Source: Chrysochromulina tobinii (taxonomy: Eukaryota). From it: DNA of 42,032 bases. Made by a program: the position numbers and the translations under genes. The stretch is from contig JWZX01003315.1 in the NCBI GenBank assembly GCA_001275005.1, forward strand, positions 1 to 42,032, given 5' to 3'. Of this stretch, positions 6,050 through 35,100 are shown one piece after another (within the stretch, counting starts at the first letter, position 1; the number at the start of each line of letters is the position of its first letter). The notes under the pieces were generated by a model. That model saw only the letters and a list, made by a program, of their open reading frames with translations, did no database searches and was not told where the DNA came from.

Positions 6050-8065
6050 ATGCCCGTGACGGCGCCTGCGATGGCGACGACGACGCCGACGGCCACGGCC
6101 ACGGAGACTCACAACTTCGACGTGGTAGTGATAGGAGCAGGCTTTGTGGGCGTCTCAGTCGGCGCCGGCCTCGCAAGCCACGCAGGGGCATGCCGCGACA
6201 ACGACGGCCTGGACCACAGCCGCGTGCAAATCATCGAGCAGGGCCCAGAGTGCGGGGCATTCTGGCTCGGCGGGCACGAGGCGTTGTCGCTGCACAGTCC
6301 GCACCACCGCCTGCCGCACGACGGTGGGCTAGCGTACGACTACCCGATGTTCAAGACTAAGCACGAGGTGCGTGACTACATGAACCGGTATGCCCAGAAC
6401 AAGGGACTCGCACAATGCATGTCCTTTGGCGAGACGGTGCTGCGCATAAGCCACGAGCCCGAAGTCGACAAGGACCGGCCGTGGCGCGTCGCTACTGACA
6501 AGCGCGAACTCCGAGCGCGGCGCGTCGTCGTGGCCACGGGGCTCAACCGGCAGCCCCATATTCCCCACATCCCAGGCAGCGAGGAGCGTGCCGCACACGG
6601 CGCGCGCGCCTTGCGGCATTCGTGGAGCGTGTCGAGCTGCGACGAGTACAAAGGCGAGCGCGTGCTGCTCGTGGGGAGCGGCAACTCCGCGGCCGAACTC
6701 GCCGTGGCGCTGCACCATTCGGGCGCCAAGTCGATCGACATTCTGGTGGACGGGCCGCGCCACTTTGTGAGACGCAGCACGATGGGGCAGATCTTTCGTC
6801 TCTTTCCGTACTTGAGCCTGTCGACGGAGAGCATGGTGCACGATCTGCACCGGTGCACATTTGGCGAGCACACGGCGGATGCCAAGGTGGTCACCGCATG
6901 GGAGCGCTTCCAGGAGGGGCAAGATGAGTTCATAAGGCTTCTTTCCGTCGATCTCGGCCCCTTCGGTATCCAGCGGCCACCGAGCTGGCGGCACGCCGAG
7001 CAGCAGAGCGTCGCTCCTCGCATCCCCGTGTACGACGTGGACCAGCAGCGGTTGCCGCGCTCTGCCGGAGAGGGCGGCATCGTCGGCGGATCCGCAGCAG
7101 TTGGCTACGGCGTCATCGACCTCATTATGAGCGGTGCTGTCGGCATCAAGCGAGGACGCATCCAGCGCTTCACGAGCACCGGCGTCGTCATCGAGGAGGG
7201 GGCCTCGCGTCACGTGACAGCGCGGGCGGGAGCCACCAAAAGTTTGACAGCGGAGGCTGCAACGATGAAGGCGGCGACGGCGGAGGCTGCGACGGCGGAG
7301 GCTGCGACGGCGGAGGCTGCGACGGCGGAGGCTGCGACGACGGCCCCGCCGGGAGGGACGCACCACGCCTACGACGCAGTCATTCTCGCGACCGGCTTTC
7401 GCCACCGCATGGCCGACTTTCTGTGCGCTAAGGACGGGTTGCTTCACACGGCCGCCTCCTTTGGTGCCGCGGACGACGCCGAGGGTGCTCCGATCATCGA
7501 CAGCTGCTCGCGCTCGCGCGTGATCGACTCCATCTACTTTGTGGGCATGGACCAATTCAGGTCGACGGCCTCTCTCGATTGGCCTCCCTGATGACCTCCC
7601 TGATGACCTCTGATTGCCCCCTCTGATTGCCCCCCCCGCTTCAGGTCGACTCTCTCGATTGGCCTCCCTGATGACCTCCTTGATGACCTCTGATTGCCCC
7701 CTCTGATTGCCCCCCCCCGCTTCAGGTCGACTCTCTCGATTGGGCCCGTGCTCGGGTATCGTGGTTACGACGTCGGCGCGGCGATCGCGACCGATTTGTA
7801 CGGTCCGCCCACGAACCCGCTGCGTTTCCCCTCCCTACCGGCCGACGAGCAAGAAGGGAGCAACCCGATCCTGACGCCGAAGCACGCGCTCAAGGTCCTT
7901 GCGGCTGGGGTACTTGTGGGGATAGCTGGCACCCTCGTGATGGGGGCGCTCAAGCGGAAGCCGCGGCCGACAGCTCTGTCAGCCGCCCGAGGCCGCACGG
8001 TCCTCGAGAGCAGGCTAGCCCGCTTCAGCACCGAAGAGCGGCCTCTGACGAAGCCGAGGCCGTAG
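6050..8065 (+). CDS. Class B flavin-containing monooxygenase (FMO/YUCCA-like) with C-terminal membrane anchor; exons 6050-7560 and 7726-8065 (616 aa)
   Basis: FAD motif VIGAGFVG, VVATG, NADPH motif LVGSGNSA, ILATGF; splicing 7561-7725 joins DQFR-STLSIGPVLG in frame; hydrophobic ALKVLAAGVLVGIAGTLVMGAL followed by KRKPR. Confidence 0.85.
7561..7725 (+). other. Spliceosomal intron (165 bp) made of two tandem GT-AG units, 7561-7644 and 7645-7725
   Basis: GT...AG ends, in-frame stop at 7589-7591, removal restores the frame; each unit starts with a copy of the downstream exon start and ends ttcag. Confidence 0.85.
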
Positions 8066-8309
8066 TAAAAGTAGCAGGAGCAAGACGAGAGCCTGTGCTC
8101 CTCTATGATCAACCCAGCAAGAGACTCTGTGCTCTGTGCGCTGCCTCGTCCGGTGAACGCACTTGAGAATCGGAGAGAAAACAAGGTTGCACGCTTCGCA
8201 CTAACTGTACGTTCTTTTTTACAAATGTACTCAAATCATCTTCTTGACGCATGCAATGATTTTTCCTCACATGAAACTTGCATAAACGGGGAAAGCTCAA
8301 GTTCTTGAA

Positions 8310-9371
8310 ATGCTGCTCAGCAAATGCGCCGTGCTTTTGCACAGCAGCGATCGCAATGAGAGCCGGCCCTTTTGGCGCCCGATCTTGGTGACACTGGATC
8401 GTCACTTCCCGCCCGGTCTGTGCGATCTTCACTTTTCGTATGGCGTCGCAGACGCTGAGGCGCACGCTGCTCTCGATGGGCTTCAGCAGCCGTTTACACT
8501 CATCCGTCGCGGCGATGGCGACCAGCTCCTTGGATGGAGCGGAGCACTGCTCAAAGATCTCGAACGGCTTACGGCTTACACCTGGATTTTCCATCTGATG
8601 GACGACGCCATCATCCCCGATCCCATCTCAAGGTTTTCGATCTCCGCAGTGCTCGATGTTGCCCGGAGACGCAACGCGTCCACCATCGCGTTAAACTACC
8701 GAGCCATCTATTACTGGCTCCGCCACACAGTCCTTCACCCTCAAGGTGCCACAGACCATGTGCAGCTTTTCCCACTGGCCTTGGTGACCAGCTCCGAGGT
8801 TGCCTCCGCGCCCGGCGTCAACTCCACACTCAACTTTTATCTTGCCCACCTGGGAAAGTTTACCTTCTCGCGATTCGTGGTCCAGCAGAACTTTGCGCTC
8901 TGGCGACGCGACGCGCTTGCCTGGACACTCCGCGACGCAGGCCCCCAGTCCAACCCACATGAGTGGGAAGCCCGCTTCGCCAACTATGCGAACCTCATCA
9001 GATGGCCTGGAGCCTCACAGGCCCTCGCTGTCTGGTTTCGAGGGCCTGACGGCATGCTGGGCGTCGAGGACACGAGCAGCCTCGGCCGAATCAAGGGCGG
9101 ATTCCCGGCGTGCGCCTGGCTCCGTGCAGCCTCGCGCGTCGGCCTGTCACCCGACTCGGTCCCGGGCGGCAAGGAAGCTGCCTCGCAAACCGGCTACAGG
9201 TTTTGCTACGCGGACGGCTTGCACGGGCTTGGAGCCCAGTTTCTGACGGCAGTGGCCTTGCAGCCAGGGCGCTGCGGCTGCGTGCACGACCACAGGGCCG
9301 TTTCGTCCAGCACTTGTTCTTGCCATGATGCTGGCCTGGAACTGTTGAGATACAACTCGAGCAGTCTATAG
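8310..9371 (+). CDS. Putative GT-A-fold glycosyltransferase-like protein
   Basis: 353-aa ORF; VLLHSSDR...FW, WSGALL...L, hydrophobic strand plus acidic pair IFHLMDD, LWRRDAL...PHEWE; pattern-level resemblance only. Confidence 0.5.
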   Translation: MLLSKCAVLLHSSDRNESRPFWRPILVTLDRHFPPGLCDLHFSYGVADAEAHAALDGLQQPFTLIRRGDGDQLLGWSGALLKDLERLTAYTWIFHLMDDAIIPDPISRFSISAVLDVARRRNASTIALNYRAIYYWLRHTVLHPQGATDHVQLFPLALVTSSEVASAPGVNSTLNFYLAHLGKFTFSRFVVQQNFALWRRDALAWTLRDAGPQSNPHEWEARFANYANLIRWPGASQALAVWFRGPDGMLGVEDTSSLGRIKGGFPACAWLRAASRVGLSPDSVPGGKEAASQTGYRFCYADGLHGLGAQFLTAVALQPGRCGCVHDHRAVSSSTCSCHDAGLELLRYNSSSL

Positions 9372-9643
9372 CGCATGGATCCGTCGTCCAAACGAGCCTT
9401 CGTGCTGCTCGTCCACCGCAGAGAGCGGTCGACCGTCCCGGCACGGTGAAGCACGGTGGTTGTGGTCGTCTAGGCTCTAGCTGCGCGATGAGGGTTGAGG
9501 CGACCTGACAGGGTCCGGCGCTGTAACATCGGTGTACCGTACTGTACCCGAGCTGTGCGCGGGTGATGACCTTTGGCCCGTTATTTTTAAGAACGTTGAA
9601 CAGGGTCTAGACAGTTTACCTTTTGTATAGTACTCCATACTGA

Positions 9644-11854
<2,211 letters not shown>

Positions 11855-11855
11855 C

Positions 11856-12035
11856 TACCGGTAACGCGTGTCCCGTGAACGTTAACACGACAGACGCGAC
11901 AACCGTGCTACGGCACTGTTACTGCCCGCTCAAAATACACACCGTGTGAACGTTAACACGACAGACACGACAACCGTGTGTGTCCCGTGTGTGTCCCGTG
12001 TGTGTCCCGGCTCCCCCCGGTGTCTTACCGGTAAC
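11856..12035. mobile_element. Small non-coding repeat element (MITE-like candidate) bounded by taccggtaac, with a 33-bp internal direct repeat and gtgtgtcccg tandem array
   Basis: taccggtaac at 11856-11865 and 12026-12035; gtgaacgttaacacgacagacRcgacaaccgtg at 11875-11907 and 11946-11978; 3' end recurs at about 35665-35720. Confidence 0.5.
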
Positions 12036-12501
12036 AACATTCACAGCTCACCACCGAACACGACACGTACAACAATTTTTCTCCCTCCCTAGCCGAGCAC
12101 GCCACATCATACACACAAGTTCCACAGCAAACGACCGTCGCGCACATGGGCCACATCCACGCGTCATCACCGAAGCCACGAGCCCTCTATACCTGCCTGC
12201 CTGCCTACCTGCCACACTGCGCCCCTGTTGCTCTTCCCGAAATGCACCGTTCGACGCGAAGAGTCGTGTCCACTCGAACGCGGCGCGAGAACGCGGCAAG
12301 GGTCGTAAAACTGTCGTAAAAGCTGCGACCACTTGCCAAAAATGGTCTCTTGCTGGCATTGGTCATGCCGTCCCCCCGTCCCATGCCTTGTCCATTTCAC
12401 TTCCCACATCTCCCTGCGCTGGTTGGCGCAAGCCTCTCATCTCTCAAGGTTTCAGGACGGAGTGCATGCAGAGCATGTCCATTCGACACGTCCGTCGGAG
12501 A

Positions 12502-15500
12502 TTACGTCGGAGATTGCTCGACCTCGCGCTCGACTTCGTCAACTTCTTCATCGCTCGCGCCGGCCTCGATAAGGAGACGCATGCAATTCAGATGGCCGCG
12601 CAACGAGGCCAGCATGAGAGCCGTGTGGCCGCATGCATCGCGCGCGTCGAGCTCGACATCCTCGGTTCCGAGCAACACGCGCACGATGTCTAGATAGCCC
12701 TCGAAGCTCGCGATATGCAGCGCGTTCTGGTTGCGCCCGTCGCACACACCCACCTTGGCGAGTAGCGATCGGAGGCAATCAGCGGCAATCAGTGGACCAT
12801 TGGAGGCAATCAGAGACCATCAGAGACCATCAGAGACCATCAGAGGCAATCAGAGGTCATCAGAGGCCATCAGAGACCATCAGAGGCAATCAGAGACCAT
12901 CAGAGACCATCCGAGGACAATCAGTGGACCATCCTAAGCCTACCCGGGCGCCGCGCCACACAAGCGCCTGGACGGTCGCAAAGTGGCCCTGCTGGCAAGC
13001 GTGCAGCATGGCCCAGTCCTGCTTGCTCTGGCTGGAACAGCGCCAGATGGGTTGCATGCCACGCACACGCACGCGCTCGGACCCGGGCACGGGATCCTCG
13101 ACGGTACTCGGCCTGTGCACGACCACGTGCGAGAACTGCATCGAGACGACATCAGACGGGTTAGGGTGAGGGTTACCATAGGGTGAGGGTCGAGGCTACC
13201 TGCATCGAGACGACCTCGACGTAGGCGCGCAGGTCGAGTAAGATCGAGGGCAATCAAGGGCAATCAAGGGCAATCAAGGGCGATCAAGAGCAATCACGTT
13301 ACATCAATTATGGGCATTCAACGGAGATCGCACCTGCATCGAGACGACCTCCAGGTAGGCGCGCATGTCGAGGGCGTACGCGTACCATGTGCGCCAGCAC
13401 CGATGGAGCTGCCGGCTAAGTAGGTACCCGACGCCCTGCAAGAACAGCCTCGTCTTGCGGCGACTCAAGCTCCAATAGGCGATCCAGGAGAGCCATGCGC
13501 GTGCGAGATGCCGTCGGCCTATCAGGTGGATCAGCACGCGAGTCATACTGCCGAGCGACTTCCGAAGCTCCATGGCGGTCATGGTGGCGTGCCGCCAGTT
13601 ACCAAAGGCATGCGCGGCGCGCCGCATCGCTAAAAAGGTGACGACCTTGCTCACCTAATGAGGGAGGTCATCAGAGGTCATCAGTGGCCATCAGTAGCAA
13701 TCATTCATCAATTCGAGGGCGACCTCGCGCACCGTCCGCATCGACGCCTTGAGCGCCGACGCGGACTCGACCCAAGCGTTCCAGCCCTTGTGGAGCGGAC
13801 GATGACGGAAGTGGCTCATGCTACTCTGGATGGCTTTGAGCTTGAGCGTGCGCATCTCGTGGTACGCGATCCAAGCTGCGCAGCCACGCGCGAGGTGGCG
13901 GCTCGACAGCTGCCGGATGACGCGCGTCATCAGCGAGCGCAAGCGCTCACTTGCTCGCTTCGTCACGCACAGCGCCTTCCAGCTGCCGAACGCGCGCGCG
14001 CCATGCCGGTTCAAAAAGGAGCCCACGCCCATGCGGACGAGTTGCACCTGATGAGGGAGGTCATCAGAGGTCATCAGGGGCAATCCGCGGCAATCAATCA
14101 TCATCGCGCCCAAATCGCGCCCAGGCGGACGAGTTGCACCATGTGCTCGCGTCCCGAGATCAGATCCACCCAATTGACGAACCCCCTCGCCATATGGAGG
14201 CTCGTCAAGTGCATCAGGCTACGCGTCAACGACGCCCGCAACGACGCGCGCGCCGCGGCGCGCCGTTGGACGTGTGAACGCCAGCTGTGAAACGCCTTGG
14301 ACTGGCCGTGATGGAGTGTGAAGCGCAAGCCTTGGCGCATGAGCGCCGAGAAGGTGCGCGCATGGCCGCCGTACTGCGAGCTCTTGCCCGCCGCCTCGGC
14401 CCAGGAATTCCATCCCTTACCCAGATGCAGGCTGCGCAGCAGCGCGACGGCTCGCGTGACGTGGCGCACGTTGGCCTGACGAGCGTCGACGAAGGCCACC
14501 CAGCCCGCGACGGCACGTGCCTCGCGCTGTCTCCTCAGGACGCGCGCCGTGCGGCCGATGAAGGTGAGCAACTGAAGCTGCCTCGAGCATGCCTCGGCCC
14601 ACGTGCGCAGGGCGCGTGAGAGGCCCCGATGACGCTGGCTGCCCACGACACGTTGGAGTGAGTTGCCCACTTCGCTCTTTCGCCATTCGAACTCGATCCA
14701 GAGGGCCTTCCACACATTGAAGCCGCGCGCGAGGAGGTGGTCGGAGAAGACTCGAACGGCGTCCGTGAATAGAGCCGCGCCGCGCCGGCGCGCCAAGCGC
14801 ACCTTCGTTGCATGCAAGAGGGAGGCAATCAGCATGCAATGGGGAGGCACTCAGCATGCAATGAGGGAGGCACTCAGCATGCAATGAGGGAGGCACTCAG
14901 CATGCAATGAGGGAGGCACTCAGCATGCAATGAGCGCACCTTCGTTGCATGCGCCCACGACGCGAAGCTGCGAGAGAGCGAGTGAGAGGTGAACAAGGCG
15001 ATGCCCTTGCCGAGCAACTCGAGCGCCTCGGCGCGTGTCGCAACCAGCTCAGCCCACGCGTTCCAGCTGCGAGCCATCTGGCGGTGGACGAGATATGCGA
15101 GCATGCGCCGTAGCGACGCGAGCAGTGCTCCCTGCTCCTCGACGCGCTCATGCCACGCATGCCAGCCAAGAGCCATGAGCCGATCGGCCATGCGCCCAAT
15201 CGCGCGACGCGTGGCGATGAATTGGGCGTCGGAGGCGTAGTGGCGTTCGGCCCACGTCGACCAAGCGCGAGCGAGTGCGCTGGAGAGCAAGTGTGCGAGG
15301 GCTCTGCCGACGCGCGCACGCCCCGCCCCGCTGAGTGTGGAGGCCTCCATCCACGTGTTCCACGCGCACGAGAGGGTGCGTGCGCTCAGATGGCTGATCC
15401 CGTGCCTCATTACGTCAGCTGCGTGAGCGTGCGAACGCCAGGTATCGGCCCACGTGTGGTACCCACGTGTCAGGCCGCGCTTGGTGAAGCGGATGAGAAT

Positions 15501-18929: not shown

Positions 18930-19160
18930 TACTCTTGCGGATCTCTTGCGTGCGGCCGTTCACACTACCAAATCGAGGTCCGAAATAATTGCATGCCCAC
19001 GAGCACCCTCCCGGAAGTCAGTCGAATTTACACATATCCGGAAGTCATTCAGTTACCCCTTCCTCAGTCAATTCACACTCCCTTGAAGAGATTCACGAGG
19101 AGGACGCCCAGGCAGGGGTGAGGCCAGCAAGAGAGCCCGATCGCGCACTTTCCACCATCC

Positions 19161-21515: not shown

Positions 21516-22904
21516 TCAGTCGACTGATGCCCACCGTACGTCGTTCGTGGGGTGGGGTCGAGGCGGCGCATGTAGCTCTACTGAAGGAGGCAGTGCTGTC
21601 GCTCCGCTCTGATCGAAATCGATCAAAAGGCTGCCCTCGTCTACTGAAGGGGGGGGCAGTGCTGCCTCGCTGCTCTCGTCGAAATCGATCAAGAGGCTGC
21701 CCTCGATCTGTTGAAGCAGCTGCCTGCCCTCGAGCCGCCTCCTCGCCTCATGCACACTCAGCACGCCATCCACTGCGATCTCTTCAATGACCTCTGCCGC
21801 CGCAGGAGCATCCGAAGCGGATGATGCCGCCGCCTCCGTCTCTTTATCGGAGGCGGTCGTGCGCAAAGCCGCCTTCGCAGTCGCGATGACGAACTCTCGT
21901 CGTCCTAGCATCGTCACGTTCAATGCTGTAAGCGCGGCCTCGCCCACTGCCGTAATGCGACGTAATCAGTGGCGATCAGTCGCAATCAGTCGCAATCAGA
22001 CGCAATCAGACGCAATCAGACGCAATCAGTGGCAATCACCTGCCGTGCATGCGGCGTGCGAGCACTGCCCCGCCTCGTCGCCCCACTTGTGGCGCACCGC
22101 CGCCTCGACCACCGCGCCGCTCGTCTTACCGATCTCGACCGCGGAATGTTCGAGCTCCTGCCCAATCGTACAGATGGCGGAGATCGAAGCACCGCCGATC
22201 ACCTTAAGTGCCGCGACGGTCGGGGTATCCGGCTGGTTCGTAGCAAGATGCTGAGCTGCTGCCGTGCCGATGGCGCCGGCGACCGCAGCGACGCCCGAGC
22301 CCACCATGCCCGTGAAGCGCAGGGCGGCGTTGGCGACGGTCCGGGTCGTGTTGACTACCTGTATCACCTCGGGAGCCACGAAGGCCTCCCTCTCATCTGG
22401 CTGCACGTGGGTTCGGATCTCGGACAGAGCACACACGAGCCCGTCGGTGATGACGGCGGCGCCGCTTTTGATGCACCGAGCCGCCGCTTGGCCGCCAATC
22501 TGGATCGACATTGCCGCCTCCTCTGCCACCGCTGCCGCAAACAAGCCACCCTCATCGACATCGTTGGAGAGCTCTGACGGCGGAGGCAGACCCAGCATCA
22601 TCGCAAGCCGTTCGCGCGCAGGAAAATCAGAGTGCTCAAAGCGCAGCAATGTGATACCGCCGCCTTGCATGGAGCAGCCCAGCTCAATGCAAGGGACGGT
22701 CCAGAAGATGGCACAACCGTCATCGTCGAGGCTGCGGTCCCACACATCGACGGCTTGGTTGTCAGGTCCATCTGGTGATGGCACGTGTACCAGCCGTCTG
22801 CCTTTCACGATCAGCGATCCCGTGCATTGGACGAAGTGGGTGCCGTCGCCGAGGAGCGCTACGCGAGCGACCGCCTCAAGAATGTGGAATTCGGACGGCA
22901 CCAT
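21516..22904 (-). CDS. Senescence-domain (spartin/ERD7-like) protein; exons 22904-22040 and 21946-21516 (431 aa)
   Basis: Small-residue amphipathic helices and VRHKWGDEAGQ...AVGEAALTALNV, typical of the spartin C-terminal senescence domain; phase-1 intron removal restores the frame. Confidence 0.75.
21947..22039 (-). other. Intron (93 bp) of CTGATTGCGT/CTGATTGCGA 10-bp repeats
   Basis: GTGATT...ACGGCAG; in-frame stop at 22026; ends in a copy of the upstream exon end (CGCAT..ACGGCAG). Confidence 0.85.
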
Positions 22905-23383
22905 TTTGTCGAGCAGTAAACGTCAATGACATCCCTCATCAAGGGGCGGGCGGGCCCTCTGTGAGGGTGACTCATCAGAGGGAAACGATAAGGCCTGCAT
23001 TTTTCTTGTTCACGAACGACGCGCCGGAGACGCGAAGAAGTTTGTACAGTAGTACTTCTCGCAATGTCTCAGGAAAAAAAATGAAGGTGGGGCATGTCTC
23101 ATGTGTGTAGGAATCTACACCTTGTTTCGGCCCGCGGGGACCACCAATACACCAACGCACCCGCGAACTCACTCACTCAACATTATTTGAACTCTTGTAA
23201 CGGCAGAACATACAAGTTTCAACAAAAATCCTTATTTATCGACCTTCTCATTCTCCTTCTCATTGCCAAGGCACGCCACAGCAGCAGCCCTCATTCCTGC
23301 CCTGCTACACGAGGACAGAGACAGTGACGTCTCTCAGAGGCCCAGTTACCATTCTCGGCGCCTAGGCGGAGTTCGCAAAGCAG

Positions 23384-24421: not shown

Positions 24422-24778
24422 GCTGCTTGCTGCAGCGACGCGAGCAAATGCGCCCACATGGAGCAACAGAGTATGTCGTGTGGCCCTACACGCCACGCGC
24501 AGGTGGGAGTGATCGCAGCGGAGCGCGTTGGCCTTACACGCCACACCGCACGCGGAGGGAGCAGCAGAGCGCGCTCGAGACGGCGCTCGAGAGAGCAGCG
24601 CCACTGGATAGGCAGATGCAGCGTAACTGCCGACTGGATAGGCTCGGGTCGGCTGGTCGCGGCGCGGGCTCGTGAACATCCCGCGCCGCGCCGGGCGCGG
24701 TTGCCGCAGCGGTTCCTCGAGCCGTCACACAGTCACCGCGGAGTACGAGTGAATACAAGCGCGTGAACCAAAAGTGTT

Positions 24779-25393
24779 TCACAGGCGCCGCGCGATATGC
24801 ACCGACGCGAGCAATAAGACGACCACGGTCACACACATAAGGCACAATCCGCAGTACATGTATTGCCACAAGGATTGCAGGGCCACATAGCGCTCATATT
24901 CCATCCTGGTCACCTCCGCCGTTTGCACCTTTTGCCGATTGCCGAGCGGATGACTGCGCGCAGCACGTTTGACGCCCTGCACGAGGGCATTGTAACCGTT
25001 CCATCCGCCCTCCACCCCGCTCGACCGAACGTCCTGCTCCAACTCGAAGCGCAACCTATCACTCCGAATTCGGTCGCGCTGCATCTGCTCGAGCCTTTCT
25101 ATCTTCTGCAGCAGCGCAGAAGTTTGAGCCTGGGCAGCGCCCGCAAGGAAACCCTCCAAGTCGCCGCGCGTGCGCGCGAATTCGGCGGCCAAAAGTCTCT
25201 TCTGCTCGACCGCTGCCGCGCCGGGCATGGTCGTCAACAGCTCCTCGGTCTCCTCGTTGTAGAAGAGAAGCTGGCCGGTTGGGCCGCAGCGGCGGTCCAA
25301 GACGGCGTGCCAGCCCTCTGGAAGCGGGCCTGGCACCGTTAGGTTGCACAGCTCGCCCGTTTGCAAGTCGAACACCGGTTCGGAGGTGGCCAT
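24779..25393 (-). CDS. WW-like domain protein with coiled coil and C-terminal TM anchor
   Basis: PLPEGWHAVLD...TGQLLFYNEET...P (second Trp absent); C-terminal YCGLCLMCVTVVVLLLASVHIARRL. Confidence 0.7.
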   Translation of the reverse strand: MATSEPVFDLQTGELCNLTVPGPLPEGWHAVLDRRCGPTGQLLFYNEETEELLTTMPGAAAVEQKRLLAAEFARTRGDLEGFLAGAAQAQTSALLQKIERLEQMQRDRIRSDRLRFELEQDVRSSGVEGGWNGYNALVQGVKRAARSHPLGNRQKVQTAEVTRMEYERYVALQSLWQYMYCGLCLMCVTVVVLLLASVHIARRL

Positions 25394-25558
25394 CCTCGGT
25401 TTTGCAGTGGTGTCGAATTTACAAACATCTTGACTGTGAACGGGTATTGTGTGCTATGAATTAGTTTCGAGTTGAAAAGGTCCGAGTTGGGCGTACGCGT
25501 CAGCAGTGACCTCCCTCCGCTCACTCTCACACACAAAACCACGTCGTGACGACCTCGA

Positions 25559-28357
25559 CTACACCGTAACACGATGAGAGACAGACGAGGGCCGCAACGC
25601 CACCTGCTCCTCAAACACGTAGCACGGCCTTCGGGTGAGAGGCACTCTCGGAGTATGGTGTGAAAGCCGCGGCGCGTGGTGCCCTGGGGAGCCCAGCTTG
25701 ATCCTTGGTCTCCGGCCTATCGGCGGGCCTATCGGCGGGCCCACCGGCGGGCCCACCGGCGAGTGGAGCGGGTGCCCCATCTTAGGGGCCTGCCCCATCG
25801 TCCACACCTCTGCGTCCTCTTGTGGGGTGGGCGCTGCCGGCGTGGATGGCGTCCCTGATTCCATGCTGATTGCATTCCTCATCAGGTGGGCTCCCTCACG
25901 GCGCCGCCGCACGATCGAAAGCAGATCTTCTCGCTCTTGGAGCCAGCTGCTATTGGCCTTCTGCCACAGCTGCCATCTGGCTTCGAGCTCCGTGTGCGCC
26001 CTGTTGCCTTGCCCCAATCTGCTCACCAATCTGCTAGGATGCGACTCGGCGCCCGGTATGGCGCTCGACTTGGCGCTCTGCTCGGCGCTCTTCTCGGCGA
26101 TTCTCGAGAACGCCGAGTTCGCGAACGGGCCGGCGGGCGTGCGAGCTTGTGGATCAGGCCACCGACGCACCGAGATCGGGTCGGAACCAAACAAGGTGAA
26201 GCCATCGGAACAAGGTGGAGCGCGATTCCATCGTCTCGCTAGCGGAGACCCATCGGCTCCAAATAAGACGTCATTATCGTCGCCGAGGGCATGCGACTCC
26301 AAAGACTGCCGTGGCCGCACTCGACCCACTCCTCTGATTGCATGCTGATTGGGTTCCTCATCAGGTGGGCTCCCTGGCCGCACTCGACCCACTCCCGGCT
26401 GCCTCGCTGATGGGCGCGCGGACGACGCGCGTACTGGCTTGAACGGCACGTCGAGCCTCGTGGACAACACCATCTGTGCCACTGTCTGTGCCACTGTCTG
26501 TGCCACTGTTTGTGCCACTGTCATCTCTTTGCCGACCTCTTTCACTGTGTTTGCCAATGCCCTCTCTTCGCCGACCCCTTCAACTGTGTGTGCCACTGTC
26601 TTCGCTTCGCCGACCTCTTCGCGGGGAATGCGATTTCTCCGACTGCGCGGCGTCAGCTTCTCGTCAACCTTCGCGACGACCAAGTCGGGCGGGCTGATGA
26701 ACACGTCATCGCCTCCGGCAGACTCAGGTGCGGGCGTGACGGCTACTCCCTCAATGCGCGGCCACTCCCTCAAAGCCTTCTTGAGCTTCGCTACCACGCC
26801 CGCCTCCTTGAGCTTTGCTGCCGCTCGTGCTGACGACGTGACCCGCGCCTCGATGGCCGCCTTCACCACTCTGGCAACGGCTTCCTCCTTGGCACGTCTG
26901 GCTGCAGCTAGCTCTTCCTGCTTGGCTGCCTCTTCCTTCTCGATCTTGTCCGCAGAGCCCTTTTGCGCCTTTGCCCACGCCGCTTCTTGCGCCACGCGTG
27001 AAGCGTGCAGTTCCTTGAGTGCCTTTGCAATCGCTGCTCGCTTCGTAATCAAGCGATTGCGATTGCGTTGCGCTGCCTTTGCCGCCGCCGCCCGTTGCTC
27101 CTTTTCGGGTAAGAAGGAGGTGGCGGCCAAGAAGGAGAAGAAGGAGAAGCCTTCTCCTTCTCCTTCTTTGCTCGGCTTTCTTGCCCGCCTCCGCTCAGCC
27201 TCCACAGCTTCCTGCCTCCGCTCAGCCTCCACAGCTGCCTGCCTCCGCTCAGCCTTCACAGCTGCCTGCCTCCGCTCAGCCTCCACAGCTGCCTGCCTCC
27301 GCTCAGCCTCCACAGCTGCCTGCCTCCGCTCAGCCTTCACAGCTGCCTGCCTCCGCTCAGCCTCCACAGCTCCCTCAATCATCTCCGCCATCTCCGCCGC
27401 GGCCGCCCGTTGCTCCTTTTCGAACAACGAAAAGGAGACGCCTTTTTCTTGTTTGCTCGGCTTTCTTGCCCGCCTCTGCTCAGCCTCCACAGCTTCCTCA
27501 GTCTTCTCCGCCATCTCCACTGTCGTCACCGCCATCGCCACCGCCTTCTTCGCCACCGGCGCCGCCGTCGCGATCCGCCGGCGGCGCCCCAATCGCCGTC
27601 CCCCTGACTGCGGCTGCCCCCCTGACTGCGGCTGTCCCCCTGTCCCCCTGTCCCCCTGTCCCCCTGTCCCCAATCGCTGTCCCCCTTGGATGACTGCGGC
27701 TGCCTTGCCAGAGCGCATCTGCTCGAGGATGGCTCCGCGCGCATAGCGCAGCGATGCGAGAGCCGTCAATGTGACGCTGATCGAGGCGACGCGCTTGCCA
27801 TGACGATCGAGGACGTCAATGGCCTGGTTTGTCGGCTCGTGCTCACGCTTCAGCAGGTCCTTGAGGTTCACGTGCGCCAGACCGAGCTCCTGCTCATCGT
27901 CGATCGCCGCCGCCATGACGGCGTCGACGGGAGTGCTCAGCCCGGGGGCTGTTACATGTATCACCTCGTCTGGGTGCTCGGCGTTCAGGCCGGCCTTGAG
28001 CACAAAGTACACGTCCGAGTCTTGCTCCTCGACCGAATTGAGCGCCTCGCACATAGGCTCCCACAGCGGCGTCCCCGGCGAAAGGGGCAGTAGCTCGTGC
28101 ACGTCGAGCAACACCGGGTCGAGCGAGGCGGGGCGAAGCCGGCTTGAGCGGAGCCGTACCTCGAGCTCGTGGGCTCGACCAAACGGGTCGATGGATATCC
28201 ACACGTGCTGCTTCGTCTGCTTCAGCTCTCGCAGCAACGGCGGCTCAAGCTGCAGCGTGTGCACCGAAAGCGTGATCGGCCCGGTCGGTGTTCCTTCCCT
28301 GTCGCCCAACTGTTTGGAAGCCTGCTCGGGCTCGTGCTCTGGAGTCAAGCCAACCAT
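25559..28357 (-). CDS. 932-aa protein with N-terminal C2 domain (RPGRIP1 C-terminal-type), IQ-like motif, coiled coil and disordered tail
   Basis: ITLSVHTLQL...VWISID...VYFVL...ELGLAHVNLKDLL...IDVLD...VASISVTLTALASL C2 strand pattern; AAAVIQ; AERRQAAVE repeats. Confidence 0.6.
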   Translation of the reverse strand: MVGLTPEHEPEQASKQLGDREGTPTGPITLSVHTLQLEPPLLRELKQTKQHVWISIDPFGRAHELEVRLRSSRLRPASLDPVLLDVHELLPLSPGTPLWEPMCEALNSVEEQDSDVYFVLKAGLNAEHPDEVIHVTAPGLSTPVDAVMAAAIDDEQELGLAHVNLKDLLKREHEPTNQAIDVLDRHGKRVASISVTLTALASLRYARGAILEQMRSGKAAAVIQGGQRLGTGGQGDRGTGGQPQSGGQPQSGGRRLGRRRRIATAAPVAKKAVAMAVTTVEMAEKTEEAVEAEQRRARKPSKQEKGVSFSLFEKEQRAAAAEMAEMIEGAVEAERRQAAVKAERRQAAVEAERRQAAVEAERRQAAVKAERRQAAVEAERRQEAVEAERRRARKPSKEGEGEGFSFFSFLAATSFLPEKEQRAAAAKAAQRNRNRLITKRAAIAKALKELHASRVAQEAAWAKAQKGSADKIEKEEAAKQEELAAARRAKEEAVARVVKAAIEARVTSSARAAAKLKEAGVVAKLKKALREWPRIEGVAVTPAPESAGGDDVFISPPDLVVAKVDEKLTPRSRRNRIPREEVGEAKTVAHTVEGVGEERALANTVKEVGKEMTVAQTVAQTVAQTVAQMVLSTRLDVPFKPVRASSARPSARQPGVGRVRPGSPPDEEPNQHAIRGVGRVRPRQSLESHALGDDNDVLFGADGSPLARRWNRAPPCSDGFTLFGSDPISVRRWPDPQARTPAGPFANSAFSRIAEKSAEQSAKSSAIPGAESHPSRLVSRLGQGNRAHTELEARWQLWQKANSSWLQEREDLLSIVRRRREGAHLMRNAISMESGTPSTPAAPTPQEDAEVWTMGQAPKMGHPLHSPVGPPVGPPIGPPIGRRPRIKLGSPGHHAPRLSHHTPRVPLTRRPCYVFEEQVALRPSSVSHRVTV
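27190..27370 (-). repeat. 27-bp coding minisatellite (about 6 copies, AERRQAAV[E/K])
   Basis: ccgctcagcctYcacagctgcctgcct tandem array. Confidence 0.9.
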
Positions 28358-28754
28358 TCGGCCAGCAGTTTCTGTTCGATCTGATCGTCAATTCGGACGC
28401 GGTTGTTCAAGGTCATGAAGGAAATGCATGCGGAAACCAACACTCAAGATTCCAAATTAGTCACATCGAGAACACAACAGTACACGGCCTTCGTACGCAT
28501 GCTTCGCTGGCATAACTGATGTCATCTCTCACGCGCTCAGAAGGCGTTGACGATCGTCACGGCTGGTCATGTCGCACAGACGAGCAGAAGAGAGAAGTGC
28601 TACCTTCACCACTACACGGTGCGCGCGCGGACCCGTCATCTCATCTGTGCGCAGGGTGAAACTGCTGCCCAAGGACCTTGCCTATAGAGTCATCTGGGGT
28701 ATCATCTGGAGAATGGTTGACTGGATGACTGCCGTCCGATGATGGTGTCCAGAG

Positions 28755-30013
28755 TCATGCTGGGGACCACTCCGGGACGGCCCCTTCACCTGGAGCATGG
28801 TTGACTGCCGTCCGATGACGTCGCCCGTGCGGGGATGGGCTGGACCCAAATACCGGTAAGTCACGGATGGGCTCAACCGGGGTCGTGACAGAGTCATCTG
28901 GGGCAGGGCTGACCGCCGTCCGATTACGTCCCGCGAAGCGGCTTGCGGGGGCTTGCCTGCTTGGAGAGAACGCGGAGGTAGAGCTTTTGATGGCAGAGAG
29001 GGCGGAGGTGGAGGCGGAGCGTAAGGGGGCTAATACAATTGAGGCGGATCGTCTGATGGTCTGCAAAGTTTCCGAGGCTGAGTGGCTGAGTCTGACGAGA
29101 GCCGTGCCCGTCTTCTCTCGCTCCGCCTCCGCCTTCTCTGCCGCCACACGCTCCGCCTCCGCCTTCTCTGCCGCCAGACGCTCCGCCTCCGCCTCCGCTC
29201 TTGCCGCTGCCGCTCGCTTCGCCTCAAGCTTTTCAAATTGGCCGCGACGTACCCGCCTGCCGCGCGCGGCCGCCTGGAGCCGGACGGTGGAGGCTCGGCG
29301 GCTGACCCAGCGAGTTGCTGCCCGCTGCACGATATTGATCGCCTTTCCAGAGCGCATCTGCTCGACGATGGCGGCAAGCCGCCGCCTACGGATGGCCTCG
29401 TCAAGCGCCCCGTCGGCGACGGGATTGGGATCGTGCGCGCGCAGATTGGCTAGCACTGCCGTCGCGTAGCTTGCGAGAGTCTCATTGTTTGACGAGAGGA
29501 GCGGCTCGAGGTCGGTCATGAGGCCTCGGCTTCGAAGAGTTTGGCAAAGAGCGTCCGGGTCCAGGGACGTGGCATTCTGGAGCACCGCACACACATACAG
29601 TTGAATGCCCCGCTCGTCTCGCCGGAGCGCACCCTGTAGCGAATCGAGACCATCATGCTCAATGAAAGCTGCGAGCGACAGATCAGCCTCTGGGTCGAAG
29701 ACGTCCGTCGAACAGGTTGCCGACGAGTGCCAACGCGCCCTGGGGGGAGCTCATCACTCTTTGTAGGATCCCCATCATATGTGTTGATGCAGGCGATTAG
29801 CGCGCGTATGCCGCCGCTCTCACGCACTGCCGCAGCGAGGGCGGCAGCATCAGCGCCGTACGAGTTGTCAGCCACACTGTTGAGCTGATCGAGTGCATCG
29901 CTTCGCGTGTCATCGCTGATGGAGTGAACGAGACTGGCGACGAGGACATTGGCTCGAGCGCGGGTCGCCTCAGCCACCCGCTCCGCGCGAGCGCTAAACG
30001 GCGTCGTGGCCAT
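28755..30013 (-). pseudogene. ARM-repeat/IQ-motif protein gene interrupted by apparent frameshifts near 29742-29747 and 29710 (pseudogene or assembly error)
   Basis: ORF 30013 frame gives AVRESGGIRALIACI; a +1 shift gives QGALALVGNLF; a second +1 shift gives TDVFDPEA...QLYVCAVLQNAT in frame with ORF 28755..29594 (YATAVLANL; IQ motifs VQRAATRW, LQAAARGRRVR). Confidence 0.6.
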
Positions 30014-30129
30014 GCGGCTTGTAGGTGTTGTGAGCAGGTCACGCGAGGGGCAGCATTTTTGTGGGGGGACGCCTCACTCGAAAATTGAAACGGCGGAAAT
30101 ACTTACAGGAAAAAAGAGGCAAACATATA

Positions 30130-31972
30130 TTAGGACAAATAAGGGGTTCGGTTGTTCGCTTGATGCATGCCACTAACAACTTCTCTGAACCACGTGGTCC
30201 TGCGGTCAACGATCTGGTTGTGCAGCTCGTGGCTTACGCACAGCGCGGCGTTGCGCTGTGCGGATGCTGCCTGCACAGCTGCTAAGCCGCCTGTCGAATC
30301 TTCCGGCTGCGCCATCAGCATCCGGAGGGCAGCAAGCCCCGCCGCATCCGCCGCCTGCTGCGGCACGTGAAAGGTTTCGCTGTAATTGTGTTCGTGCCAG
30401 CCGGCGGCCGCATCGAGCGCCATCACGTCGAGCAGCTCGATGCACATCTGGGCAGCGACGCGCCGCACGATGGCATCCATTCGTAAGAGCGACTCGAGCT
30501 GATGGTCCGCAACCGTGAGTCCATAGCGGCGTAGGTCCCGCGTCCCTGCGTGACAACTGCGCAGCACGAGCCTGCCCTTAAAGCTTGCCCCGCAGCTTCA
30601 GCATTGCTGCACGCAATTTCGCTTCAAAGCCCGCGTAGATCGCGTCATCGGAGAGGCGGTTGCTATCCGGGACGCAGGGGACGCCCATTACCTTGACCGT
30701 TGTGTTGCCTTTCAAGTAGGTTCCGTTGCGAAGTTCCTCCAGATAGACGAACGCACGCTCGGCCGGCGGAGAGTGGCAGTGCTCTGGGCTCGAGAAGCCA
30801 AAGTAGTACTCACTTTTGTTGATGTGCGGCAAATCCCATGCACACGCATTGAAGATGATGACGGCCGGCGCGCTCCGATTCTCAAAATGGCGACGCGTCA
30901 CGGGGTGTGCGTCAAAGGCATCGCTTGACAGCAGCATGAGTGTCGGGGTTTTTGGAGAGCGTAGGCGCCACTCGGGGTAATGGAACCGTTGGCGAAAGTT
31001 GGCGAGTACGTGATCGAGCTTGTGCAAGTCGAGACCTCGCATGAAGCGAAACGAGAGCAGCAGCGGACTCAAAGTTGCGTTTGGATCACGCATGACCGAG
31101 CGGCACCGATGGTTGGGTAGCCACTCAAAGACAGTGTCTTTGTCCTTCTGCAAGCCGCGGTCCCGCACGCCTATTCCATCGACGTGTGGATGGACGATAG
31201 AGAGGTTGAAGCCGCGATGCCCGATCACGCGCCGTGCGCCCTCGTATACGTGCCGATGCGTGCTGTCGCCCATGAACAGCACCCATTGCCCAGCGAGGTG
31301 CTGCAACATCTCGCACTGGCAAAACCCAGCCCCCAAGATCGCGCGCACGGGGCCACGGGCACGGGACATCTCGAGCTGATGGCGTGTCACGTCGGGGTAG
31401 CGGAGGCTGCAATGCCCGCAAGCAGCAAACGTTACGGGGCTACAATTGGCGCAGCTGGGCAGGCAACTCAGCTGGTTCACGTTCACGTCGTAAGTTCGCC
31501 CTCCTCTCGGCATGCCGCGCCTCTTGCCACCTGGCGTGCGACCTTTGGGGTGCGGGGGCATCTCAGATCCAGAGGGCATCTCCAGCTTGCCGCCAATCGT
31601 GTGGTTCTTGTCCGCTTTGTGGCGCCGCCACCTTGCACCCGCCGTGGGACCGGCGGAGGTTTGATTGCTGCCAGGATCGTCGGTGAAGGGCCTCGACGCC
31701 GCGTACGGAGGCTTCTTCATGTGCTTCCATAGCCGGACATACTTTGAGTAAACTTCGTGTGTATGGACTCCGGCGCAGAGCTCACACGTGCCGCAGGCGA
31801 CGGGACAGTGGGCCATCGGGCATCGTCCCGAGTCGGCCCCGAACGCACATCGGCCCATAGCTCCGGGTTCAGGCCACGGGCCCGGGCAGCAGGTCCCGAG
31901 GAGAACGAGCGAAACGTGACGCGTCATTCGTCCGGTCGTAATTGCAGAACCTATCCGGATAACACGCGCCAT
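30130..31972 (-). CDS. SGNH/PC-esterase (TBL/Cas1p-like) protein with N-terminal Cys-rich ShK-like segment; one frameshift at the C-run 30588-30591
   Basis: C.C followed by VLFMGDSTHR; FNACAWDL; C-terminal D....WH in ORF 30130..30567; deleting one base gives KLRASFKGRLVLRSCH; CPMAHCPVACGTC near the N-terminus. Confidence 0.65.
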
Positions 31973-32103
31973 GCAATCTTTTTTATTTGAGTAACCAGTT
32001 TAACAAACTCCGCCGCTCTGGAATTTGGTCACATACTAGCTTGCAGATGTAAGTAAGGGGTTCGGTTGTTCGTGCATGCTACTTACAACTGCCCGCCTCT
32101 TCA

Positions 32104-35100
32104 TCATCCTTTTCTCTTCTTGCGCCGCTTCTTGCGCCGCCTTTGGGCCTTTTTCAGGAGCTTGCGAGCGAACCGTGCAGCAGGATCGCTCCGCGCAAGA
32201 AGGCGCGCGGCTCCCGACCCGGCACCATCTGCCTGCTCCTCCTCTCCGCCCTCATCGGTGCCCTCCGAATCACTCTCGTCGTCCTCCGCGCCGTCGGCAC
32301 CGTTGGGAGCTGTCGCGGCTCGGCGGTCTCGTTCGGTCTGCTCGCATGCAAGGTTGCCGTTGGAGGCGGATGGAGCACAGAAGCTCAGGCTGCCGTTGGG
32401 TGGAGCACAGGAGCTCAGTCGGCCCACGTCCTCTCTAACCAAGGGTCGAGGCATCCGCTCGCAAGACTCTCGCTGTGAAGAGCTCTCGCTGTGAAGAGGC
32501 ATCCGCTCGGAAGACTCTCGGCTCGCTGTGAAGAGCTCACGGCTCGCTGTGAAGAGCTCTCGGCTCGCCCAATGCCCCAAGCCGGCCGCCTTGGATCCAA
32601 AATCCTCGTGAGTGTCCTCAATATAGGCACGACGAGAGGCTTCGAGGAGCTTCTCATATTGGGTCTGGAGCGACGCGTGAGGCGAAGGGAAGATGAGTTC
32701 GAATTCTCCGCGATTGGCGCTCTCGTACTCCGAACGGAGCGTGATGAGCTGGGACAGCAGTGCCCGGGCCTGATGGCGACGCGCGTACGCTCGCCCCCCC
32801 GAGCCGCTGTAATCGACACTTTCGGAGGAGCCCGCCGACGTGAGAGCTCTGTAATGGGCACTTTCGGGGGAGCCCGCCGACGGGTGAGCGCTGTAATGGG
32901 CACTTTCGGGGGAGCCCGCCGACGGGTGAGCGCTGTAATGGGCACTTTCGAGGGAGCCCGCCGACGGGTGAGATTCCGGTGTCGAGAGCGCGGAGGTGGG
33001 GCCCAGCGCAGCGCTCACTTGACTGCCACTGCTGCCGCTCATCGCTCGGCTCGGCGGATGATGATTCTTGATGATGCTGAGCAGCTCTTCCTCCGCAGCC
33101 GAGAAGGAGGCGAGGCGCATCGTGTCGGCGAGCAGCTTGGTCTTGAGACTGCTGTCGATGGGCGTGTCGCACGAGAGCGAGGGCGAGTGATTCACTTCCA
33201 CTAGCCACGGCTTACCGGACTGGTCGATCAGCAAGTCGAACCCGAGCATGAGATGGCAATCAGAGGCAATCAAGGCCCATCAAGGGAGATCGCACCTGAT
33301 CGATCAGCAAGTCGAACCCGAGCAGCTCAAAGCACGAAAAGGGATGCGCATCGTGCGACGGCCGGCACGACGCGTAGGCGTGCGCGAGGTCCGGCTGGAC
33401 AGCAATGAGAGTCTTGACGATCAGTTGCTGGCAGTCTCCCCACAGCGCATCCACGTCGAAGCCAGCCTCGCGCGAGATCGTGTCGAACACATGCCCGAGC
33501 CGCCGCTTCGCGCCGTCGACCCCGGCGGTGAAATCCTCGTGTTGCTTGTTGATCGCATAGTTGGTCAGATGGCGCTTGCGCCAGTCGCTCGCACTCGTGG
33601 CGGCGGCGATGCCGGCCGCTGCAGTTAGGTCGAGCTGCTCGCCGGAGGAGACCACCTGATACTTCTCCGTGCAGAGCCGCGCGAGCCCGTCGCGGTAAAT
33701 GTGGATGCGAAGCGGCGAGCAAGAGGTCACAAGCACGTACAGGCGCAGATCGAACTTGTACCCTTCGAGCAGTAGCGGCCTGTCAATGTACATTTGCGCG
33801 ACGCCCTCGGCCCAGCGCCCATTCTGCTGCATCACGTGCTGAAGCTCCTCGTGACTTCGGCAGATCGAGATCCCAGCGCCTTGGCTCCCCTTGCTCGGCT
33901 TGACAATGAGCACAGGCGGCTTGTGCGCCTTCATCAGCCGCGTGAGCTCCGCCTGGTCCTTTGGCAATGTCCACGAGGCCGGGAAGAAGTCGAACGCTTG
34001 GGCCGAGAAGCGGAGGTTACGGTTGAGCACGCTCGCCGCGGACGCCTTGCGACAGATGAGCGTCATGCCCACAAAGTGGTTCAGTTTCTGCAGGGGCCCC
34101 AATGCGCTCGCACGCGCGTGGCTCACCGACGTATCCACCCAATAGATGTTCCACGGCGTCGAGTATTTGTAGCACTCGTTCGCCATGTCAAGGGCTTTGG
34201 CGCTCGCGGCAGCGCTCGCGGCAGGAGCGCCGCCCGCATTCGACATCGCCTTGAAAGACGGCCGATCGATGTACATTCGGGTGTGCGGCCCTCTCGGGGC
34301 GACGAAGCTTGAGGCGAGTGGAGAGGCGATGGGCGCAGTGGAACTGACTGCGGCGGCCGCTTCCCTGACCGACGAGTACCTGGACGAGCTCGCGTCGACC
34401 GTCATCTTCATCGGCTCGGTTCTTGAGGCGCGGATTCGATAACCTTCCATGCTGCTGCGCTGAGATGCAAGCCGCTCTTCCACAGGTAGTGCCGTTGGCG
34501 TCTGCGGTGGCTGCGGTGGCCGAAATTGAGCTGGCGGCGGCTGAGGCGGTTGCTGAAGCAGTTGCTGTGCTGGTGGATGAGGAGGTGGATGAGGCGGTGG
34601 ATGAGGCGGTGGATGAGGCGGTTGCTGAAGCATTTGCTGAAGTGGTTCCTGAAGCAATTGGTACAGCGGCATCGGCGGTGGCGCCGGGTGCTGTTGCAGT
34701 GACAGGTGCCGTCGCTGTGGCCACTGCGACAGGTTCTGTTGCTCCTGCAATGGCAGCTGAAGCAGGTGCTGGGGCGGCAGCAGTGCTGGCGAGAGCGAGC
34801 GCGGCAGCTGCGTCGCCCACGCCGATGATGGAGCGCTCTGGAGCTCGAGTGTAATCTGTCGACGAATCTCCTCTGTTGGTGAATCGGTTATGGCGATGTC
34901 ACCGCACGGCACTGGCTCGCTCGACGCCCCTTGCTCGCCGCATCTCGTTGCCAGCTCGGCCAAGGCTCTCTCCAAGGCTGCCTGTGGTGCACCAAAGGGC
35001 AAGGCTGCGTCCAATGATACGTCCAACTCTCCGATTTCGTGCCTCGCGGGCACACGACCACGGCCGATGGGGCTGACCTGTGCGCCTCGAACGTCGGGAA

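What the first reader, a model, noticed from the sequence alone, without database searches (positions are those of the whole stretch)
7561..33295. Candidate intron-generating system: every intron is a branch-point repeat filler plus a long copy of the flanking exon
Seen: all 8 reconstructable introns, in four unrelated genes (7561-7725, 12754-12943, 13136-13333, 13655-13732, 14048-14139, 14803-14939, 21947-22039, 33220-33295), contain related tandem cores (CTGATTGCC/CTGATGACC/TTGATTGCCC/CTGAGTGCC), always in the gene's sense orientation. Seven carry an adjacent-exon copy at one or both ends: about 18+5, 39 and 15, 15, 23, 20, 7-14 and 29 nt. These copies provide the GT and/or AG. Pairs share ends: GTGCGATCTCC.TTGA at 13333 and 33295, and CTGATGACCTCTGATGACCTCCCTCATYAG at 13655 and 14048. 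No terminal inverted repeats are visible. Known: introner transposons usually have fixed short TSDs, often with TIRs; tandem-duplication and break-repair models of intron gain predict flanking repeats but not a shared filler family. Inference: a process duplicates a variable length of target and fills the gap with short repeats, creating immediately spliceable introns. An alternative is that old introns are being rewritten by slippage or conversion from adjacent exons.
Basis: partly seen in the sequence, partly recalled or inferred. Interest (0 to 1): 0.92.

Follow-up and report, generated by a model that had tools for sequence, protein, structure and literature searches.

The report
Self-copying introns in a freshwater alga
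In a freshwater alga, many introns consist of a shared 10-base repeat set between two copies of the neighbouring gene sequence, some are present in one strain and absent in another, and they are likely made when DNA-break repair copies pieces of existing introns into new places, which would be a way of gaining introns without a transposon.

Summary
All 8 introns are GT..AG, removing them restores long reading frames, and one is skipped exactly in RNA contigs of two studies. The DNA is from a freshwater Chrysochromulina. The exon copy is clearly above chance in 5 of 8 introns, marginal in 2 and absent in 1, so 'every intron' overstates. In 82 related loci plus the window, 24 of 74 filler sites have flanking repeats scoring 12 or more (null 0.12%), and copies run 9-60 nt. 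Three sites are precisely empty in another allele, and distant orthologs lack the two introns tested. Antisense, in-frame exonic insertions of the same build exist, so the process itself needs no splicing. Best reading: staggered-break repair that copies from existing introns via microhomology (0.5); no enzyme was identified. It fails the Introner tests (no fixed TSD, no TIR, not alike end to end). This scan saw the same footprint before, elsewhere in this genome (e1-2577349).

The parts
7561..7725 (+). Intron 1 (flavin monooxygenase-like gene): two stacked units (84 + 81 nt), each opening with an 18-nt copy of the downstream exon (the first with a 4-nt insertion); 5-nt upstream copy at the end
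   Evidence: 165-nt skip inferred from X3 record 25
12754..12943 (-). Intron 2 (1910-aa EF-hand gene): long 10-nt repeat array, no exon copy; repeat number differs among alleles
13136..13333 (-). Intron 3: unit A 13200-13333 (shared 5' start, filler, 39-nt upstream-exon copy at 13200-13238) stacked on unit B 13136-13199 (telomere-like filler, 15-nt copy at 13136-13150)
13655..13732 (-). Intron 4: degenerate 13-nt downstream-exon copy (13720-13732, marginal), filler, shared 3' end
14048..14139 (-). Intron 5: 22-nt downstream-exon copy (14118-14139) giving the GT, filler, shared 3' end
14803..14939 (-). Intron 6: 20-nt duplication spanning AG|GT (13 + 7 nt), 23-nt repeat filler, two units fewer in other alleles
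21947..22039 (-). Intron 7 (senescence-domain gene): 10-nt repeat filler, 7-nt upstream-exon copy (marginal); spliced
33220..33295 (-). Intron 8 (tubulin-tyrosine-ligase-family gene): shared 5' start, filler, 29-nt upstream-exon copy (33220-33248) giving the AG
26312..26395 (+). Antisense exonic insertion in the 942-aa minus-strand frame: 21-nt copies at 26312-26332 and 26375-26395, period 63 nt (in frame); the filler carries 11 nt beyond the usual AG end, shared with the site at 25885
25853..25895 (+). Second antisense filler in the same frame, no clear long copy; candidate template of the 26312 insertion; longer, still in frame, in relatives P0151 and P0153

Best explanation
These are spliceosomal introns and intron-like insertions built as exon copy, shared 10-base repeat filler, exon copy, and they are likely made by repair of staggered DNA breaks in which a broken end briefly copies part of an existing intron before rejoining. 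Shown: the architecture, the variable copy length (9-60 nt), empty alleles, absence in distant orthologs, and antisense in-frame cases. Inferred: fill-in of the stagger makes the duplication; an end primes by microhomology on an intron junction or inside the repeat and copies a variable stretch, which gives fixed-3'-end, fixed-5'-end and doubly truncated inserts; selection keeps sense inserts whose copy holds a usable GT and/or AG, because the filler supplies branch-point-like motifs and sense stop codons, and keeps antisense inserts only when in frame. Slippage, local duplication of intron tail plus exon start, and recombination between the two copies would then expand, stack or precisely delete them.
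For: Flanking repeat score >=12 at 24 of 74 sites against 0.12% of 846 cross-pairings; >=20 at 16 of 74 against 0. Copy length is continuous, 9-60 nt at 35 sites. Overlap at the copy/filler join averages 1.55 nt against 0.38 in the 22 of 35 sites measurable. Mirror-type sites with an upstream-exon copy exist. At least three filler types share the build. The 26312 insert shares about 40 nt plus 11 nt of flank with a site 480 nt away. Antisense 63-nt in-frame inserts: window 26312 and L005. Empty alleles at 3 sites, in contigs that keep neighbouring introns. Orthologs read through the intron-8 site (P0010, P0013, P0014) and the L040 site (7 of the 9 distant homologs inspected, plus one that passes the donor site and breaks later). 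Staggered 3'-overhang breaks give small tandem duplications, with microhomology when polymerase theta acts (PMC8355091, passages). Daphnia neointrons carry exon-shared repeats ascribed to staggered breaks (PMC4202315, passages).
Against: No enzyme or template was observed. No filler lies between genes (0 of 52 core hits in 6,787 intergenic nt), whereas blind break repair should leave many neutral inserts there; this points to a link with transcription or splicing that the model lacks. A fixed 3' end, 5' truncation and variable duplication are also marks of target-primed reverse transcription. 50 of 74 sites have no strong copy, and 1 of 8 window introns has none. The overlap statistic is inflated by maximal extension of the copy. 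34 sites were chosen by a pattern that demands AG|GT. The filled allele at the L040 site is widespread (14 of 15 listed cluster members end in its filler; such clusters cannot hold empty alleles), so the empty allele may be a loss. Two TTL orthologs break one codon from intron 8, which could be an old intron that slid.
Confidence: 0.5

Rival explanations
1. RNA-templated insertion: a reverse transcriptase primes at a nick on an excised intron or pre-mRNA and copies its 3' end, as non-LTR retroelements do, giving 5'-truncated inserts with variable duplications, mainly in transcribed genes.
For: Fixed 3' end at 34 + 29 sites, with variable filler length; variable copy length and 5' microhomology; 28 of 29 unselected 3' ends are followed by G, 23 by GT (exon background 4.9%); no filler between genes.
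Against: Mirror-type inserts with a fixed 5' start and an upstream copy would need antisense templates. No poly(A) tail. No RT domain in 20 window ORFs; no Rfam match in window 1-27000. Several unrelated fillers behave alike.
Confidence: 0.22
2. Old introns are being rewritten: local duplication of intron tail plus exon start, then deletion of the first part, leaves a long apparent target duplication; empty alleles are precise losses; the shared filler reflects slippage and conversion among introns.
For: 9 of 11 stacked units have tails 21-28 of 28 alike, some sharing private variants. Window intron 1 is such a doublet. Repeat number differs between alleles at 13 of 16 testable sites. The filled allele is common at the L040 site. 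TTL orthologs P0003 and P0004 break one codon away.
Against: Cannot produce antisense exonic inserts. 2 of 11 stacked units have unlike tails (11 of 28). Distant orthologs lack both introns tested. 20 of 29 unselected downstream exon starts read GTR, as expected if the exon start supplied the donor.
Confidence: 0.2
3. A conventional Introner: a non-autonomous DNA transposon with a fixed short target duplication, later blurred by microsatellite growth.
For: One splice site carried and one recruited from the duplication, as in Introners; Introners with 4-bp TSD and no TIR are reported in a marine Chrysochromulina MAG (10.1101/2022.06.06.494994, Fig. 2C legend).
Against: Copy length 9-60 nt, also at the three polymorphic sites (15, 26, 36 nt); no TIRs; no end-to-end identity; filler 19-230 nt.
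Confidence: 0.05
4. Assembly artefact: short-read assemblers duplicate or collapse sequence next to repeats.
For: Repeat arrays are hard to assemble; the 26- and 36-nt copies are long enough for a collapse to mimic an empty allele.
Against: The same five introns, with copies, are in alleles about 1% diverged (L018 and L038 cover all five, L028 three). Copies carry mismatches that recur across alleles. One empty allele has a 15-nt copy. RNA contigs skip intron 7 exactly.
Confidence: 0.03

Closest known systems
Daphnia pulex neointrons ascribed to staggered double-strand-break repair (PMC4202315, passages seen; review PMC3443670, passages)
   Same: Direct repeat shared between an exon end and the opposite intron end; internal repeats; presence/absence in populations; secondary insertions at one site.
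   Different: Repeats there are 4-12 bp (33 cases), here 9-60 nt. Here the insert belongs to genome-wide filler families with fixed intron ends; that Daphnia inserts mostly lack a known source is recalled, not seen in the passages.
Introners / introner-like elements of Polarella, Symbiodinium, Aureococcus and marine haptophyte MAGs (10.1101/2020.10.14.339549 section 5; PMC9860276 passages and supplement rows)
   Same: Related introns in unrelated genes; one splice site carried, the other recruited from the duplication, or both from it; strong bias to genes.
   Different: TSD length is fixed per class (3, 4, 5, 8 nt). The survey needs similarity at both ends and drops low-complexity families, so this type would be filtered out. 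C. tobinii and C. parva appear only in its input table in the part of the supplement held (file cut when stored).
Intron gain by tandem genomic duplication of AGGT (PMC3443670, passages)
   Same: The duplicated exon segment supplies both splice sites (intron 6 and similar loci).
   Different: Here foreign filler lies between the copies and often supplies one splice site.
Non-LTR retrotransposon / SINE insertion by target-primed reverse transcription (hallmarks recalled; non-LTR introners are mentioned in PMC12130899, passages)
   Same: Fixed 3' end, variable 5' truncation, variable duplication, 5' microhomology.
   Different: No poly(A) tail, no RNA-family head or ORF found, and mirror-type inserts exist.
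10-11 bp tandem repeats in Emiliania huxleyi introns (Read et al. 2013; recalled, paper not held)
   Same: 10-nt periodic repeats in haptophyte introns (321 of 520 spacings are 10 nt here).
   Different: As recalled, a description of repeat content with no link to exon copies or intron gain; not checked.

Membership tests
Introner (TE-derived) | Similarity between introns reaching both ends | tested here: not met
   One end shared, the other a site-specific exon copy; filler 19-230 nt
Introner (TE-derived) | Short TSD of fixed length per family | tested here: not met
   9-60 nt at 35 sites
Introner (TE-derived) | Terminal inverted repeats (many families) | tested here: not met
   None joining intron ends among the pairs shown
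Introner (TE-derived) | Splice site recruited from the duplication | tested here: met
   GT/GC..AG in register at 18 of 24 strong sites, partly by selection of the search pattern
Introner (TE-derived) | Presence/absence and absence from orthologs | tested here: met
   3 empty alleles; orthologs read through two sites
Introner (TE-derived) | Autonomous partner element | not testable with these tools
   No genome held; no transposase or RT in 20 window ORFs
Break-repair neointron (Daphnia type) | Exon-shared direct repeat at the opposite intron end | tested here: met
   24 of 74 sites against 0.12% null; 5 of 8 in the window
Break-repair neointron (Daphnia type) | Parallel or secondary gains at one site | tested here: inconclusive
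   2 of 11 stacked units with unlike tails, window intron 3; P0234 and P0229 suggest other inserts at the L040 site, from protein only
Break-repair neointron (Daphnia type) | Dependence on an end-joining pathway | not testable with these tools
   Needs mutants
Non-LTR / SINE insertion | Fixed 3' end, 5' truncation, variable TSD | tested here: met
   For the commonest class; mirror class differs
Non-LTR / SINE insertion | Poly(A) or simple 3' tail; RNA-derived head or RT ORF | tested here: not met
   Ends in the intron acceptor; no Rfam match in window 1-27000; no RT family
Tandem genomic duplication intron | Intron consists only of duplicated exon sequence | tested here: not met
   Filler between the copies in all 7 window introns that have a copy
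U2 spliceosomal intron | GT..AG ends, branch-point motif near the 3' end, exact removal from RNA | tested here: met
   8 of 8 GT..AG; YTRAY 17-41 nt from the end in 8 of 8; exact skip shown for 1 of 8, inferred for a second; branch use itself untested

The most novel reading that the evidence does not exclude
Introns in this alga multiply without any transposon: existing introns serve as the repair template for staggered breaks in transcribed genes, so a branch-point microsatellite spreads itself, and the long flanking copies make every gain precisely reversible. This would be a self-sustaining gain-loss cycle that Introner surveys filter out, possibly running across haptophytes with different fillers.
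Probability: 0.35. Interest if true: 0.9.

Novelty: new variant of a known kind. Interest (0 to 1): 0.74.

Why it matters
The source of new intron sequence is an open question outside Introner-bearing lineages. Here the inserts have a visible source (other introns), a long footprint, segregating empty alleles and a culturable host, so break-repair intron gain becomes directly testable. Published Introner pipelines exclude this type by design, so it may be undercounted. It also affects annotation: the public C. parva model P0143 ends inside intron 8.

Tried and rejected
No whole genome is held and the metagenome records behind the loci could not be opened, so there is no genome-wide census and no enzyme search. 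The pattern gave 0 hits in viral contigs. The first strand classifier was unusable (29 sense, 25 antisense, 21 unclear; flanks held intron sequence) and was replaced; one coding tandem-repeat cluster was dropped, leaving 74 of 75 sites. The automated presence/absence tally found 1 empty site of 16 testable; the other two came from pairwise alignments of 26 locus pairs. RNA cover over introns 2-6 was too low or swamped by repeat-bearing contigs: no evidence either way. There are no read data for the window beyond 22900, so intron 8 and the antisense inserts are untested in RNA. A search with the antisense translation of the filler gave 61 proteins, nearly all unnamed, so no taxonomic range. A telomerase origin was considered: a telomere-like filler was found at 1 site only (unit B of intron 3). 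The likeness of the repeat to snoRNA C/D boxes (recalled) was set aside; no Rfam match. Literature: 9 searches found no description of long variable exon copies around shared repeats in haptophyte introns; Read et al. 2013 was not held, and the Introner consensus sequences were not visible.
Full report
Setting. The window is eukaryotic DNA of about 63% GC with few introns. A C. parva gene model (P0143) lies in the 90% cluster of a 99%-identical relative of the window's TTL protein, and another (P0152) matches a second window gene, so the organism is a freshwater Chrysochromulina (haptophyte). No whole genome was available.

The observation. All 8 intervals are GT..AG on the gene strand, and removal gives stop-free frames of 616, 1910, 437 and 756 aa with FMO-like, EF-hand, senescence and TTL domains. 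The TTL exons abut exactly in a homolog alignment. RNA contigs from two studies skip 21947-22039 exactly (X3, shorter side 23 nt; X1, 45 nt). A 165-nt skip at intron 1 is inferred from X3 record 25. The other six have no RNA test. The core motif has 35 of 52 window hits in the 1,029 intron bases, all sense, and none in 6,787 intergenic bases. Each intron has a YTRAY motif 17-41 nt from its end. In-register copy scores are 11, 3, 15, 8, 20, 20, 7, 26 against at most 8 in 56 cross-pairings: five clear, two marginal, one absent. No terminal inverted repeats were seen.

Not an artefact. A scan of metagenome contigs for the shared 3' end gave 82 loci, 34 distinct sites. L018 and L038 (about 1% exon divergence) hold all five introns of the long gene and L028 holds the three it covers, with the same copies and different repeat numbers. 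L026 matches the window almost letter for letter and is not independent. Summed contig depth over the intron 2 bin is several hundred times that of exon bins in X15 and X16, which shows many carriers but is not a copy number.

Census. Among 74 distinct filler sites (window plus loci; one coding repeat dropped from 75), a flanking direct repeat scored 12 or more at 24 (null 0.12% of 846 cross-pairings) and 20 or more at 16 (null 0); 18 of the 24 have GT/GC..AG in register, partly because 34 sites were chosen by a pattern demanding AG|GT. Fifty sites have no strong copy. At 35 sites with a downstream-exon copy at the intron start, lengths run continuously from 9 to 60 nt, and the copy overlaps the filler by 1.55 nt on average against 0.38 (22 measurable; maximal extension inflates this). 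A mirror class has an upstream-exon copy ending in AG, and some copies span AG|GT. Of 29 3' ends not chosen by the pattern, 28 are followed by G, 23 by GT and 20 by GTR, against a 4.9% GT background (some are units of one intron). Spacing is 10 nt in 321 of 520 intervals. At least three filler types use the same build.

Gain or loss. Three sites are precisely empty in another allele: L040/L001 (87 nt, copy 36), L002/L014 (165 nt, copy 15) and L074/L060 (94 nt, copy 26, another filler type). The empty alleles read through in frame and their contigs keep neighbouring introns. An automated tally found 1 empty of 16 testable sites and length variation at 13. At the L040 site, 7 of 9 distant homologs inspected read through (of 13 hits), one passes the donor site and breaks later, and one (P0229) has its own repeat-flanked break at about the same codon. 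The filled allele is widespread in the species (14 of 15 listed members; such clusters cannot hold empty alleles), so the intron looks gained on this lineage while the empty allele may be ancestral or a precise reversion. At intron 8, P0010, P0013 and P0014 read through; P0003 and P0004 break one codon later, P0005 and P0058 earlier. This fits rapid turnover, but sliding of an old intron is not excluded.

Orientation. A codon-based strand call (cross-validated 401 right, 16 wrong, 63 unclear) gave 58 sense, 11 unclear and 5 antisense; on reading the translations, only L005 holds as antisense. It is a 63-nt, 21-residue in-frame insert with a 20-nt copy and the usual fixed end, in a 1010-aa frame. 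The window has another: 21-nt copies at 26312 and 26375, period 63 nt, in the 942-aa frame; its filler includes 11 nt beyond the AG that match the site at 25885, found nowhere else in the loci. Relatives keep both inserts in frame, one enlarged. These cannot be old introns of those genes, so de novo insertion is real and needs no splicing; the match suggests copying from a nearby genomic copy.

Secondary change. Of 11 stacked units, 9 have tails 21-28 of 28 alike (local duplication of tail plus exon start) and 2 are unlike (11 of 28: new filler at an existing junction). Window intron 1 is of the first kind, intron 3 of the second.

Mechanism. The simplest account of variable long copies, three end types, several fillers, microhomology and local flank capture is staggered-break repair with template switching onto existing introns, filtered by selection (0.5). 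Such breaks yield small tandem duplications experimentally (PMC8355091, passages). All mechanistic steps are inferred. The lack of intergenic inserts is unexplained and favours an RNA- or transcription-linked route (0.22). Rewriting of old introns gets 0.2, a conventional Introner 0.05, artefact 0.03.

Known systems. It works like Daphnia break-repair neointrons (repeats 4-12 bp; PMC4202315, passages) and recruits splice sites like Introners, whose TSDs are fixed per class (10.1101/2020.10.14.339549, section 5). It fails Introner membership on TSD, ends and TIRs. Introners are reported in marine haptophyte MAGs and E. huxleyi; C. tobinii and C. parva appear only in the input table of the supplement part held (cut when stored), and the pipeline drops low-complexity and one-ended families (PMC9860276, passages and rows). 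I could not see the consensus sequences, so overlap with those families is open. Ten-base intron repeats in E. huxleyi are recalled from Read et al. 2013, not held. Other papers seen as passages: PMC4580454, PMC8379373, PMC12480563, PMC12130899, PMC3443670, PMC13518057, PMC4815162. Nine searches found no description of this build.

Verdict. Real and well above chance; a new variant of break-associated or introner-like intron gain with an unidentified enzyme. Interest 0.74.

Noticed in passing
window 9644-11854 (-): One 736-aa frame holds an esterase domain followed by a zinc alcohol dehydrogenase: an S-formylglutathione hydrolase / formaldehyde dehydrogenase fusion; similar fusions in diatoms and ciliates are recalled, not checked.
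   Followed up: no
window 8286-9371 (+): 361-aa frame, lower GC, no Pfam family; nearest atlas clusters are viral hypothetical proteins (0.97); contigs about 92% alike suggest further copies. Possible virus-derived gene.
   Followed up: partly
window 11855-12035 and 35655-35720: A non-coding repeat shared by two intergenic regions, with very high summed contig depth: a candidate small high-copy element distinct from the intron filler.
   Followed up: no
window 13136-13199 (-): Unit B of intron 3 has a degenerate telomere-like filler with the same copy-filler build; the only such site found. Interstitial telomeric tracts are reported in a coccolithophore (PMC13518057, passages).
   Followed up: partly
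protein P0229 (homolog of the L001 gene, 38% identity): A different repeat flanked by a duplicated 8-residue exon stretch at almost the same codon as the L040 intron: the build may occur in distant relatives with other fillers (protein evidence only).
   Followed up: no
protein P0234: At the L040 site the filler starts about 30 nt earlier than in the other alleles: a second insert or a trimmed copy.
   Followed up: no
L010, L025, L029, L053, L074: A second filler family with its own fixed 3' end shows the same long exon copies.
   Followed up: partly
window 25559-28387 and 28755-30073 (-): Neighbouring paralogous frames share a short motif; the longer one holds further low-complexity in-frame repeats.
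   Followed up: no
L017, L031, L032, L036: An exon plus long filler intron repeated several times in tandem (about 380-nt units).
   Followed up: no
window 30138-30180 and 32053-32092: A roughly 40-nt sequence shared near the 3' ends of two minus-strand genes.
   Followed up: no
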